From contig CAWHTA010000011.1 of the NCBI GenBank assembly GCA_963832145.1, positions 203,683 through 267,682 on the forward strand: 64,000 nt of DNA. Reading direction: 5' to 3'. Within the stretch, counting starts at the first letter, position 1, and each line of letters starts with the position of its first letter. Below, piece by piece: positions 26,462-27,955 of this stretch. The position numbers and the translations under genes are program-made. Below the pieces are notes generated by a model. That model saw only the letters and a program-made list of their open reading frames with translations. It made no database searches and was not told where the DNA came from. Source of the stretch: an uncultured Acidobacteriota bacterium. Lineage in GTDB: Bacteria > Acidobacteriota > Thermoanaerobaculia > UBA5066 > Gp7-AA6.

Positions 26462-27955
26462 AGACCCTCATCCGCGGCGGAACGGTCGTCACGGCGACGG
26501 ACCTCTACCGCGGTGACGTCCTGATCGAGGACGACAAGATCGTGGCGGTTATCGCACCGGGGAGGGATCTGACCCCCTTCGGGGATCAGACCCCGGACCG
26601 TGTCATCGAAGCTGAGGGCAAGTACGTCCTCCCCGGCGGGATCGACGTCCACACCCACCTCGACATGCCGTTCGGGGGCACGACGTCCGCCGACGACTTC
26701 GAGTCGGGCACGATCGCCGCGGCGCACGGCGGCACGACCTCCGTCGTCGACTTCGCGATCCAGTACCGCGGGCAGACGCTCCGTCACGCGCTCGACGCGT
26801 GGCGGGCGAAGGCGGACGGCAAGGCGGCGATCGACTACGGCTTCCACATGATCGTCACCGACCTGAACGACGCCGTCGAGCGGGAGATGGACGCGCTCGT
26901 CGCGGAGGGCGTGACCTCCTTCAAGCTCTTCATGGCCTACCCCGGCGTCTTCATGCTCGACGACGCGTCGATCTTCCGCGCTCTCCTCCGCACGCGGGAG
27001 AACGGCGGCACGATCTGCATGCACGCCGAGAACGGCGGGGTCATCGACGTTCTCGTGCAGAGGGCGCTCGCGGAGGGAAAGACCGAGCCGAAGTACCACG
27101 CGCTGACGCGTCCCGCGCGCGCGGAAGCGGAGGCCACCCACCGCGCGATCGCGCTCGCCGAGATCGCCGGGCGTGCCGATCTACATCGTGCACCTCTCCG
27201 CGCCGGAGGCCCTCGAGATGGTGACCGCCGCGCGCGACCGCGGCCTTCCCGCGTACGCGGAGACGTGCCCGCAGTACCTCTTCCTCTCGTACGACAACTA
27301 CGAGGAGCCCGACTTCGCGGGAGCCAAGTACGTCATGAGCCCGCCGCTGCGGCCGAAAGAGGGGCAGGATCGCCTCTGGCGGGGGCTCGCGGGAAACGAC
27401 CTGCAGGCGATCTCGACCGACCACTGCCCCTTCTGCATGAAGGAGCAGAAAGAGCTCGGCCGCGCCGACTTCTCGAAGATCCCCAACGGCGCGCCGGGCA
27501 TCGAGACGCGGATGAGCCTCGTCTTCGACGGCGGCGTTCGGACCGGGAAGATCTCGCTCAACCGGTTCGTCGAGCTGACGTCGACGTCCCCCGCGCGGAT
27601 CTTCGGCCTCTTTCCGCGCAAGGGCACCGTCGCTCCCGGCTCGGACGCCGACCTCGTCGTCTTCGATCCGAACCGGAAGCAGACTTTGTCGGCGAAGACG
27701 CTTCACATGAAAGTCGACTACAACCCGTACGAAGGAAGAGAAGTCACCGGCGCCGCCGACACGGTGCTTTCGCGCGGGAAAGTCGTCGTCGAGAACGGCA
27801 AGTTCGACGGGTCGAGCCGGCGCCGGCTCGTTCCTGAAACGGAGTCCGCGGTGACCACGCCGAAAAGGGGACAGATTTATTTTTCGAATGAGGCTGCGCG
27901 GTTCGGCGGGATAAATAAATCCGTCCCCTTATTCGAATGGGAGAGAAGCGCATGA
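26458..27955 (+). pseudogene. dihydropyrimidinase (D-hydantoinase) with apparent +1 frameshift near 27169 (or sequencing error)
   Basis: TTG 26458 frame 1 (...DVHTHLDMPFGG...EATHRAIALAEIAG) continues in frame 2 (VPIYIVHLSAPEAL...); gccgGgcgtg versus expected gccggcgtg. Confidence 0.8.
27863..27940 (+). other. AT-rich imperfect hairpin (18-bp arms) with flanking direct repeat TTCGAATGRG, inside the last ~30 codons of the dihydropyrimidinase ORF
   Basis: AAAAGGGGACAGATTTATTT ... AAATAAATCCGTCCCCTT; TTCGAATGAGG / TTCGAATGGGAG; ends 12 nt before aminotransferase ATG. Confidence 0.5.

What the first reader, a model, noticed from the sequence alone, without database searches (positions are those of the whole stretch)
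27851..27955. AT-rich hairpin with direct repeats at the dihydropyrimidinase/aminotransferase junction
Two 18-20 nt arms, AAAAGGGGACAGATTTATTT and AAATAAATCCGTCCCCTT, form a long imperfect stem. A direct repeat TTCGAATGAGG / TTCGAATGGGAG follows each arm. The region is very AT-rich for this genome. It is read through by the last ~30 codons of the dihydropyrimidinase ORF, which ends in an ATGA overlap with the aminotransferase start. This is either a small inserted element that extended the upstream ORF, or an RNA structure controlling coupled translation of the aminotransferase.
Basis: seen in the sequence. Interest (0 to 1): 0.55.

Follow-up and report, generated by a model that had tools for sequence, protein, structure and literature searches.

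The report
Miniature transposon hairpin between two genes
The AT-rich hairpin is a gene-less pair of inverted repeats left by a transposon of the RAYT-like (TIRYT) tyrosine-transposase family, a known kind of element; the protein "tail" that reads through it comes from a frameshift in the upstream gene, not from the element.

Summary
Two about 21-23 nt inverted arms (27863-27885 and 27910-27932), a short direct repeat and a local GC drop lie between the dihydropyrimidinase and aminotransferase genes.

**What it is.** The arm core GGGGACAGATTTATTT matches the terminal inverted repeat that brackets a roughly 230-aa Y1/HUH "TIRYT" transposase gene (RAYT Group 1, TnpAY1 subclass 2.1). I found this arrangement in Pseudomonas, Steroidobacteraceae and another gammaproteobacterial MAG. 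Gene-less doublets of the same core, with variable loops, occur in at least five phylum-level groups, often in several copies per genome. The window copy is one such doublet, comparable to a MITE or REPIN.

**Insertion.** In 18 parsed relatives the two genes overlap by ATGA. Only five sequences carry this doublet. At least 24 others carry unrelated palindromic repeats at the same junction.

**The tail.** All orthologs end ...GSFLKRSPR* at window 27852-27854. The window gene carries two +1 frameshifts (about 27170 and about 27807), and the second creates the read-through.

**What is not supported.** There is no evidence for a dedicated regulatory RNA: no Rfam match, and only one compensatory pair among five orthologous copies. 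A passive effect on the mRNA is possible but untested.

This is a new member of a known kind, of modest interest.

The parts
27855..27951 (+). Whole intergenic segment that is absent from relatives in which the two genes overlap by ATGA. It consists of a left flank, the TIR doublet and a right flank with a new ribosome-binding site.
   Evidence: Junction comparison: L215 and 17 other loci have a 4-nt ATGA overlap. The window, L002, L001, L220 and L227 have 82-139 nt containing the doublet.
27863..27885 (.). Left arm, one TIR copy. Core GGGGACAGATTTATTT lies at 27867-27882, preceded by AAAA and followed by TTC.
   Evidence: The same 16-mer brackets TIRYT genes in L213, L143, L172, L210 and L185. 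It fits the published GGGGWSAS motif (PMC3733652).
27886..27909 (.). Spacer (loop) of the doublet, 24 nt. It is homologous to the loops in L002, L001 and L227, but variable across the wider family.
   Evidence: Alignment A1; family listing.
27910..27932 (.). Right arm, an inverted TIR copy. Core AAATAAATCCGTCCCC lies at 27913-27928, with one substitution from consensus (C27922, where relatives have T).
   Evidence: The substitution gives an A.C mismatch on the + strand RNA and a G.U pair on the - strand.
27880..27890 (+). First copy of the direct repeat TTTTTCGAATG, at the inner edge of the left arm.
   Evidence: D2. In relatives only TTTTTCG is shared.
27929..27939 (+). Second copy of the direct repeat TTATTCGAATG, in the outer flank of the right arm.
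   Evidence: D2. L220 has several tandem CCCTTTTTCG units here.
27852..27854 (+). Orthologous stop codon (TGA) of the dihydropyrimidinase, in window frame 3. The protein ends ...GRAGAGSFLKRSPR*.
   Evidence: P0001 and others; aa 441-455 of P0029 map at 100% identity to 27807-27851 in frame 3.
27805..27812 (+). Site of the +1 frameshift (frame 2 to frame 3). The window reads TTCGACGGGTCG where L002 reads TTCGTGGGTCGG. This frameshift creates the non-homologous tail that runs through the hairpin.
27166..27172 (+). Site of another +1 frameshift in the same gene (frame 1 to frame 2), consistent with an extra G at GCCGGGCGTG.
27940..27946 (+). Shine-Dalgarno-like GGGAGAG of the aminotransferase, just 3' of the hairpin foot.
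   Evidence: Read from the sequence. Equivalent GAGGAG and GAGGAAG sites occur in L002 and L001.
27952..29289 (+). Class-III aminotransferase gene. The start is the ATG at 27952 (MSSTTREV...), conserved as ATGAGC in relatives.

Best explanation
The hairpin is a gene-less doublet of terminal inverted repeats. It is a miniature, non-autonomous derivative, like a MITE or REPIN, of a "TIRtron".

A TIRtron is a mobile unit in which a roughly 230-aa Y1/HUH tyrosine transposase gene is bracketed by inverted copies of AAAAGGGGACAGATTTATTT. The transposase is known as TIRYT, RAYT Group 1 or TnpAY1 subclass 2.1.

**Shown**
- The arm core is identical to the TIRs that bracket such genes.
- Gene-less doublets are multi-copy and dispersed in many genomes.
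- Relatives have an empty site at this junction.

**Inferred**
- The doublet, or a full element later deleted internally, inserted into the dihydropyrimidinase/aminotransferase junction in an ancestor of the lineages of the window, L002, L001, L220 and L227. That junction was originally a 4-nt ATGA overlap or a very short spacer.
- By analogy with IS200/IS605 TnpA and E. coli TnpA-REP, mobilisation would use the hairpin form of single-stranded DNA, recognised and cut by the transposase supplied in trans.
- At the host level the element is most likely a tolerated passenger. It separates the two cistrons by about 97 nt, replaces translational coupling with a separate SD and ATG, and places a stable stem-loop in the operon mRNA. 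That stem-loop could act passively as a 3'-exonuclease block or a weak terminator, as REP elements do.

The apparent C-terminal extension of the dihydropyrimidinase is unrelated to the element. It results from a 1-nt insertion near 27807, which is either a real pseudogenising mutation or an assembly error.
For: **1. Same repeat brackets the transposase gene**
- The 16-mer flanks a Y1_Tnp gene in inverted orientation in L213 (P. aeruginosa record, 3 copies), L143 (P. putida), L172, L210 and, in degraded form, L185.
- The L213 protein matches PF01797 at E = 7.6e-14.
- It scores 75.6 bits against NCBIfam REP_Tyr_transpos, just under the 80-bit cutoff.
- It carries NHVH, WE and YIELNP and is 230 aa long. 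These are the subclass 2.1 signatures in Table 1 of PMC6006769.

**2. Published motif**
- The arms fit GGGGWSAS, the motif reported for TIRs flanking TIRYT genes. Those TIRs were described as forming moderately abundant families organised as dimers (PMC3733652).

**3. Wide, multi-copy distribution**
- 87 distinct doublets of this family were found in Gammaproteobacteria, Acidobacteriota/Thermoanaerobaculia, Desulfobacterota, Nitrospirae and Bacteroidota.
- Loops and contexts vary, and no neighbouring gene recurs across loci.
- Several genomes hold multiple copies: at least 8 in Steroidobacteraceae SMAG_U10808, 3 identical copies within 5 kb in L185, and 25 arms in the 24-kb L213.

**4. Empty sites**
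- 18 orthologous junctions have the ATGA overlap, including Thermoanaerobaculia L215 at 91% protein identity.
- The doublet is present only in the window, L002, L001, L220 and L227.

**5. Arms co-vary across the family**
- At one variable arm position the pairs are TA 61, CG 14, TG 6 and CA 3.
- The outer flanks are 81% complementary although their sequence varies.

**6. The tail is a frameshift product**.
Against: - Only one copy lies in the 64-kb window, and the window has no Y1 transposase gene. Activity, or even multi-copy status, in this particular genome is therefore not shown.
- No TIRYT gene was found next to the doublets in the five Acidobacteriota/Thermoanaerobaculia loci examined (L102, L155, L159, L164, L205).
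- The transposition mechanism of TIRYT elements has not been demonstrated experimentally, to my knowledge, so that step rests on analogy.
- The junction is occupied by unrelated palindromes in many lineages. This could mean that a hairpin here is selected by the host and is not merely tolerated.
- Every occupied junction keeps both a stop and an ATGAGC start. A simple single-step insertion model does not explain this.
Confidence: 0.8

Rival explanations
1. The hairpin is a dedicated cis-regulatory RNA (riboswitch, attenuator or translational operator). It would be transcribed within the operon mRNA and control translation or coupling of the aminotransferase.
For: - It lies directly between a stop codon and the SD/ATG of the next gene.
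- It folds stably as RNA (-31.8 kcal/mol, z = -4.25; relatives -40 to -42).
- It is retained in five related sequences, with one compensatory U-A to C-G change in L001.
Against: - No Rfam family matches, even at E up to 10.
- The same arms occur in dozens of unrelated contexts across phyla, with unrelated loops, and bracket a transposase gene.
- 18 orthologous junctions lack any spacer, and others carry unrelated palindromes.
- The single compensatory pair is not significant (94 of 500 shuffles reach it).
- The window copy has accumulated two mismatches relative to its relatives.
- The SD lies outside the stem.
Confidence: 0.06
2. The element has been co-opted by the host as an intercistronic mRNA hairpin, acting as a partial terminator or a 3'-exonuclease barrier. 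It would set different expression levels for the genes upstream and downstream, and this host benefit would explain why so many lineages keep a palindrome at this junction.
For: - At least five unrelated palindromic repeat families occupy exactly this junction in different lineages, all starting right after the stop codon.
- In L002, L001, L220 and L227 the stem is followed by a U-run.
- E. coli REP elements are known to stabilise upstream mRNA and attenuate transcription (my own knowledge, not checked against a paper here).
Against: - The terminator scan does not call the hairpin: the loop is 24 nt, and the U-run is interrupted in the window (CUUAUUCG).
- The ATGA-overlap state persists in many lineages.
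- Palindromic repeats also sit at other junctions in the window (8302, 25482, 55046), as expected if they simply fill any tolerated intergenic site.
- There are no expression data.
Confidence: 0.12
3. The palindrome is a DNA operator bound by a dimeric transcription factor that regulates the pyrimidine-catabolism operon.
For: It has inverted-repeat symmetry and lies inside a catabolic operon.
Against: - Half-sites of 16-21 nt separated by 24 nt do not match the usual operator geometry, and across the family the total element length varies from 46 to 76 nt.
- The element sits between two co-directional genes with no promoter-like site nearby.
- The same arms occur in unrelated contexts in many phyla.
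Confidence: 0.02

Closest known systems
TIRtrons and TIR repeat families of TIRYT tyrosine transposases (Di Nocera et al. 2013, PMC3733652). Equivalent to TnpAY1 subclass 2.1 (Quentin et al. 2018, PMC6006769) and RAYT Group 1 (Bertels et al. 2017, PMC5581495).
   Same: - A Y1/HUH transposase of about 230-240 aa with NHVH and YIELNP motifs is bracketed by inverted repeats that start GGGGWSAS (here GGGGACAG).
- The TIRs also occur without the gene, as dimers, in moderate copy number.
- The family has a wide and patchy taxonomic distribution that includes Acidobacteria.
   Different: - The window copy has no transposase nearby, and only one copy lies in 64 kb.
- The papers I could read give only the 8-nt motif. 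Quentin et al. state that no REP-like sequences were found for subclass 2.1.
- The near-invariant 16-nt core across phyla, and the abundance of short gene-less doublets, do not appear in the main text I searched (PMC3733652, PMC6006769) or in the supplements of PMC3733652.
REPINs mobilised by RAYTs (Bertels & Rainey 2011, PMC3116915)
   Same: - Two short repeats in inverted orientation are separated by a spacer and form a long hairpin.
- They are extragenic and non-autonomous.
- The cognate Y1 transposase gene is flanked by the same repeats.
   Different: - Classical REPs are individually palindromic, carry a 5' GT[AG]G tag, are lineage-specific, and occur tens to hundreds of times per genome.
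- These arms are not self-palindromic and lack GTAG.
- Their core is shared across phyla.
- The associated transposase belongs to the group reported to behave more like an insertion sequence (found on plasmids, with horizontal transfer).
MITEs
   Same: A short element made essentially of the two terminal inverted repeats of an autonomous transposon. It shows insertion polymorphism between relatives.
   Different: - Classical MITEs derive from DDE-transposase insertion sequences and show target-site duplications.
- Here the partner is an HUH/Y1 enzyme, and no clear target-site duplication is seen.
- The flanks are inverted (AAAAG...CTTTT), not direct.
IS200/IS605 elements and their palindrome-associated derivatives (PATEs)
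   Same: - The transposase fold is the same (PF01797).
- Hairpin DNA ends are presumably recognised in single-stranded form.
   Different: - IS200/IS605 ends carry different, non-inverted subterminal hairpins.
- TnpA-IS200 is about 150 aa and has a Y---Q motif. Here the protein is about 230 aa with Y---NP, and the ends are inverted repeats.

Membership tests
TIR repeat of a TIRtron (TIRYT / TnpAY1 subclass 2.1 / RAYT Group 1) | The repeat carries the GGGGWSAS motif at its outer end. | tested here: met
   Both arms read GGGGAC[AG]G (27867-27874, and the complement of 27921-28). The motif definition comes from PMC3733652 and PMC6006769.
TIR repeat of a TIRtron (TIRYT / TnpAY1 subclass 2.1 / RAYT Group 1) | The same repeat brackets a Y1/HUH transposase gene in inverted orientation in some genomes. 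| tested here: met
   L213 has three such units. L143, L172 and L210 each have one, and L185 has a degraded one. The 16-mer lies within about 25-190 nt of each gene end.
TIR repeat of a TIRtron (TIRYT / TnpAY1 subclass 2.1 / RAYT Group 1) | The associated transposase has the subclass 2.1 signatures: HuH = NHVH, W[EQ], Y motif = YIELNP, length about 238 aa. | tested here: met
   - The L213 protein is 230 aa and contains ...MTNHVHLLL......LWESRY... and ...RYIELNPVRA....
- It matches PF01797 at E = 7.6e-14.
- It scores 75.6 bits against NCBIfam REP_Tyr_transpos, under the 80-bit cutoff.
TIR repeat of a TIRtron (TIRYT / TnpAY1 subclass 2.1 / RAYT Group 1) | A cognate transposase gene is present in the same genome as this copy. 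| not testable with these tools
   No Y1_Tnp homolog lies in the 64-kb window (tblastn). The rest of the source genome is not available.
TIR repeat of a TIRtron (TIRYT / TnpAY1 subclass 2.1 / RAYT Group 1) | The repeat is multi-copy and extragenic within a genome. | tested here: inconclusive
   - Met in other genomes: at least 8 doublets in Steroidobacteraceae SMAG_U10808, 3 in L185 and 25 arms in L213.
- In the source genome only one copy is visible in 64 kb.
- Other Thermoanaerobaculia MAGs carry doublets at unrelated loci (L155, L164, L205).
Mobile element in general | Presence/absence polymorphism at an orthologous site (an empty site exists). | tested here: met
   18 junctions have the ATGA overlap, against 5 with the doublet. 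L215 is 91% identical at protein level and empty.
Classical REP/REPIN (RAYT Groups 2/3) | Each REP unit is itself an imperfect palindrome with a 5' GT[AG]G tag. | tested here: not met
   The arms start AAAAGGGGAC, have no GTAG, and a single arm is not self-complementary. I therefore do not file it as a classical REP.
Rfam cis-regulatory RNA families | A match to a curated covariance model. | tested here: not met
   The best hit in 27500-28300 scores 20.7 bits against a gathering threshold of 80 (E = 0.56). Nothing comes near any threshold.
Intrinsic terminator | A GC-rich stem with a short loop, followed by a T-run. | tested here: not met
   The consensus scan does not call it. The loop is 24 nt, the stem is AT-rich in its inner half, and the tail in the window is TTATTCG.

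The most novel reading that the evidence does not exclude
Two linked readings remain open.

**(a) A pan-bacterial miniature element.** The 16-nt core GGGGACAGATTTATTT is almost invariant across at least five phylum-level groups. It could define a miniature-element family mobilised by subclass 2.1 TnpAY1 enzymes. That subclass was reported to have no REP-like partners, so this would make its DNA substrate directly testable.

**(b) Host selection for a hairpin at this junction.** At least five unrelated palindromic repeat families have colonised the dihydropyrimidinase/aminotransferase junction, replacing an ancestral ATGA overlap. This could reflect host-level selection for an intercistronic hairpin that uncouples the two genes or sets their expression ratio. 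The alternative is simple tolerance of insertions.
Probability: 0.15. Interest if true: 0.55.

Novelty: new member of a known kind. Interest (0 to 1): 0.3.

Why it matters
**Annotation**
- The hairpin should be labelled as a transposon-derived repeat, not as a riboswitch-like element.
- The dihydropyrimidinase should be flagged as frameshifted (pseudogene or assembly error), not as carrying a novel C-terminal extension.

**Biology**
- The locus gives a clear before-and-after series. A translationally coupled ATGA junction has been split open, in different lineages, by different palindromic mobile repeats.
- That series could be used to test how such insertions change operon expression.
- The near-identical 16-nt TIR core across phyla gives a concrete candidate substrate for the uncharacterised TIRYT / subclass 2.1 Y1 transposases.

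Tried and rejected
- **Rfam scan of 27500-28300 at E up to 10:** only chance-level hits.
- **Single-arm scan of viral contigs:** 91 stretches, nearly all with one isolated match and none with an inverted pair at hairpin spacing. I judged these consistent with chance and uninformative.
- **Literature search for the arm sequence itself:** only unrelated eukaryotic hits. The sequence does not appear in the text or supplements of the TIRYT/RAYT papers I searched.
- **Search for a recurrent neighbouring gene around 80 doublet loci:** the largest protein cluster covers only 5 loci, and one such 5-locus cluster turned out to be the transposase.
- **Terminator and promoter scan:** the hairpin is not called, and there is no promoter-like site.
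- **Covariation test on the five orthologous hairpins:** too few sequences; one compensatory pair, not significant.
- **GC3 frame-plot of the whole window**, to judge whether frameshifts are common (assembly error) or specific to this gene (pseudogene): too coarse to decide.
- **Homolog search with the Steroidobacteraceae TIRYT**, to look for Thermoanaerobaculia members: a large family (6202 hits at E of 1e-10 or better), but the few source names were all gammaproteobacterial, so it was uninformative on that point.
- **Target-site duplication:** considered and left open. Left and right flanks of occupied junctions both keep ATGA, but so do junctions occupied by unrelated elements. Selection for a stop and a start is as good an explanation.
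Full report
**1. What is in the sequence**

The region lies in a + strand pyrimidine-catabolism operon. The genes, in order, are:
- an aldehyde dehydrogenase;
- a CN-hydrolase (beta-ureidopropionase, 25589-26461);
- a dihydropyrimidinase (about 26460-27854);
- a class-III aminotransferase (27952-29289);
- a DHO_dh/PreA-like gene (29303-30457).

The hairpin and its context:
- The repeat finder reports arms at 27865-27885 and 27910-27930: 21 nt, 90% complementary, 24 nt apart.
- The direct repeat TTTTTCGAATG / TTATTCGAATG lies at 27880-27890 and 27929-27939.
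- The 16-mer GGGGACAGATTTATTT and its complement (1 mismatch) are the only two matches in 64 kb, against 0.05 expected.
- GC is 50% here and 67.6% for the window.
- The hairpin alone folds at -31.8 kcal/mol as + strand RNA (z = -4.25). The - strand folds about as well, because the A.C mismatch at 27873/27922 becomes a G.U pair there.

**2. The ORF "tail" is a frameshift product**

- The 260-aa ORF 27173-27955 does read through the hairpin and ends in an ATGA overlap. However, all 120 best homologs cover only 82-83% of it.
- Homologs end ...ENGKFVGRAGAGSFLKR(S/N)PR. This is encoded in window frame 3 and stops at TGA 27852-27854.
- tblastn of a full-length homolog (P0029) maps aa 1-229 to frame 1 (26467-27171), aa 229-442 to frame 2 (27170-27811), and aa 441-455 to frame 3 (27807-27851, 100% identity).
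- The window gene therefore has two +1 frameshifts. One is consistent with an extra G at GCCGGGCGTG near 27170. The other is TTCGACGGG, where the 97%-identical short-read contig L002 has TTCGTGGG.
- In L002, L001, L220 and L227, which carry the same hairpin, the gene stops before it.
- I could not decide whether the frameshifts are real or assembly errors. The neighbouring genes are intact. A related contig (L001), whose "contig_N" name I take to suggest a long-read assembly, has several genes called much shorter than their window counterparts. A GC3 frame-plot was too coarse to help.

**3. The hairpin is conserved at this junction in a few relatives**

- L002 and L001 have the same structure in the same place. 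Their loops are homologous: TTCG..., CGGTT[CT]GG...GGAT.
- A metagenome scan with the aminotransferase N-terminus added L220 and L227.
- L001 has GATCTAT/ATAGATC where the others have GATTTAT/ATAAATC. L227 shares L001's flank and loop but keeps the T/A pair, so the change looks compensatory and local.
- With five sequences this is one compensatory pair in 22. It is not significant: 94 of 500 shuffles reach it.
- The window copy is the most degraded, at -31.8 kcal/mol against -42.2 and -39.8.

**4. Most relatives lack it, and the junction is a landing pad**

About 50 orthologous junctions could be parsed. Their states are:

| Junction state | Loci |
|---|---|
| 4-nt ATGA overlap of stop and start | 18, including Thermoanaerobaculia L215 (91% protein identity) |
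| This TIR doublet | 5 (window, L002, L001, L220, L227) |
| CTGTCATTCCGAGGAGCGAAGCGACGAGGAATC... palindrome | 12, including L218 and L219, the closest aminotransferase relatives (96-97%) |
| GC-rich palindromes (two, L235 and L259, containing a GTAGGGG tract) | 7 |
| CATCGGTTCAT-type or CTCTCGGCCGCCGGTCGC-type repeats | at least 5 (L244, L260; L248, L262, and a second element in L229) |

- In L227 the doublet is nested inside remnants of a GTCATTCCG...CGGAATGAC palindrome.
- All inserts begin right after the stop codon and are followed by a new SD and ATGAGC.
- The ATGA overlap is the simplest ancestral state, and the hairpin is an insertion.

**5. What the arms are**

- One subset is a separate Ktedonobacteria/Chloroflexia repeat (tGTAGGGACCGAT[TG]TATCACGTCC...).
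- The rest, 87 distinct doublets, share (A)AAAGGGGACAGAT[TC]TATTT ... AAATA[AG]ATCTGTCCCCTTTT. Loops and contexts vary.
- These 87 come from Gammaproteobacteria (many Pseudomonas, Steroidobacteraceae, Chromatiales, Methylococcales), Acidobacteriota/Thermoanaerobaculia (L102, L155, L159, L164, L205), Desulfobacterota, Nitrospirae and Bacteroidota.
- The variable arm positions co-vary (TA 61, CG 14, TG 6, CA 3). The outer flanks are 81% complementary although variable.
- No neighbouring gene recurs, apart from one protein family found in 5-8 loci.

That recurring family is the transposase:
- A BLAST search of plasmid records found a P. aeruginosa record (L213, NZ_CP116719.1) with 25 arms in 24 kb.
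- There, three 230-aa "transposase" genes are each bracketed by the arms in inverted orientation, for example + arm at 14162, gene at 14239-14931, - arm at 14935.
- The same geometry holds in L143, L172, L210 and L185.
- The protein matches PF01797 (Y1_Tnp) at E = 7.6e-14. It scores 75.6 bits against NCBIfam REP-associated tyrosine transposase, whose cutoff is 80.
- It has NHVH, WE and YIELNP motifs.

**6. Comparison with the literature**

- Di Nocera et al. 2013 (PMC3733652) described RAYT-like genes flanked by long terminal inverted repeats. They named these units "TIRtrons" and the enzymes "TIRYT". Many of the TIRs share GGGGWSAS, and some form moderately abundant repeat families organised as dimers. 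Acidobacteria are among the hosts.
- Quentin et al. 2018 (PMC6006769) place most TIRYTs in TnpAY1 subclass 2.1, which corresponds to Bertels Group 1. Its signatures are NHVH, W[EQ], YIELNP and a median length of 238 aa. They found no REP-like sequences for this subclass.
- Bertels et al. 2017 (PMC5581495) report that Group 1 has the widest distribution (21 classes) and is present on plasmids.
- The arms here (GGGGACAG...) and the protein signatures fit this family on every feature I could test.
- They do not fit classical GTAG-tagged REPs.
- The main text I searched (PMC3733652, PMC6006769) and the supplements of PMC3733652 do not contain the extended 16-mer.

**7. How it most likely works**

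Shown:
- The arms are homologous to TIRs that bracket the transposase gene.
- Gene-less doublets are dispersed and multi-copy.
- Empty sites exist in relatives.

Inferred:
- The doublet is a non-autonomous element moved in trans by a TIRYT, through recognition of the DNA hairpin in single-stranded form. This rests on analogy with IS200/IS605 TnpA and E. coli TnpA-REP.
- At this locus it is most likely a tolerated passenger. It replaced translational coupling by a 97-nt spacer with its own SD (GGGAGAG, 27940-27946).
- A passive mRNA effect (exonuclease barrier or weak terminator) is possible but untested. The terminator scan does not call it.

**8. The direct repeat**

- The first copy is the inner edge of the left arm. 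Many family members read ...ATTTATTTTTC/G.
- The second copy is the outer flank of the right arm. The family consensus there is GTCCCCTTTTT(C/G).
- In relatives only TTTTTCG is shared. L220 has several tandem CCCTTTTTCG units.
- The direct repeat is therefore a by-product of the T-rich edges of the element, not a separate feature.

**9. Verdict**

The hairpin is a real, non-random feature that I identify, at about 0.8 confidence, as a member of a known kind of mobile repeat. The "extended ORF" and "coupling control" ideas are not supported. Interest is modest. Two points are worth keeping: the cross-phylum conservation of the 16-nt core, and the repeated colonisation of one gene junction by unrelated palindromes.

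Noticed in passing
window 26460-27854 (frameshift sites near 27166-27172 and 27805-27812): The dihydropyrimidinase gene is split across three reading frames by two +1 frameshifts, while the neighbouring operon genes are intact. It is either a pseudogene or an assembly error. Many homologs on long "contig_N" contigs are also called as truncated proteins (277, 321 or 335 aa).
   Followed up: partly
window 25449-25566, 8302-8332 and 55046-55076: A second, unrelated palindromic repeat family is present: CTGTCATTCCGAGGAGCGAAGCGACGAGGAATC ... GATCCCTCGCTTCGCTCGGGATGACAG. It occurs three times in the window. One copy lies between the aldehyde dehydrogenase and the beta-ureidopropionase of the same operon. 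The same family occupies the dihydropyrimidinase/aminotransferase junction in 12 related metagenome loci (for example L218, L219, L221, L226).
   Followed up: partly
L218-L297 (orthologous junctions); compare window 27852-27955: The stop/start junction of these two genes is an ATGA overlap in 18 relatives. In other lineages it is occupied by at least five unrelated palindromic repeat families. Every insert starts right after the stop codon and is followed by a fresh SD and ATGAGC. It is not resolved whether this reflects an insertion hot spot or selection.
   Followed up: partly
L099-L208 (Ktedonobacteraceae / Chloroflexia loci, e.g. L100 2656-2720, L125 5217-5280 and 6860-6923): A separate multi-copy palindromic repeat was found: tGTAGGGACCGAT[TG]TATCACGTCCT...AGGACGTGATA[AC]ATCGGTCCCTACa. 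It starts with the GTAG tag typical of REPs, yet shares GGGAC-GAT-TAT with the TIR core studied here. A possible relationship between the two families was not examined.
   Followed up: no
e.g. L151 7744-7845, L147 3560-3634, L188 980-1055, L148 700-781, L159 1780-1870, L220 1132-1190: Many doublets are flanked by short tandem duplications that include the outer end of the arm. Examples are GTCCCCTTTACG repeated twice, GAATTAATGGGGACA repeated twice, GATATACCGGGAC repeated twice, and GGGGACAA repeated three times. This may be a footprint of the cleavage and joining chemistry. It remains unexplained.
   Followed up: no
L213 (NZ_CP116719.1, P. aeruginosa, 24.3 kb): The record richest in these repeats (25 arms and 3 TIRYT genes) is an array of small toxin/immunity-like cassettes downstream of a DUF637 protein. 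The cassettes are annotated EndoU, deaminase, glutamine deamidase and non-specific endonuclease. It looks like a polymorphic-toxin locus with orphan modules, with TIR doublets lying between the cassettes.
   Followed up: no
window 40656-41948 (- strand): A second, intact dihydropyrimidinase/hydantoinase-like gene lies here. It is 33% identical to the operon enzyme over 451 aligned residues.
   Followed up: no
L210 846-2300 and 2281-2733; window 27744-28019 and 27877-29778 (- strand): Spurious long ORFs that run across these repeats translate the arms as peptides such as ...KGTDLF... and ...NKSVPF... / ...INLSPF.... These strings could serve as a quick marker of this repeat family in protein databases.
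   Followed up: no
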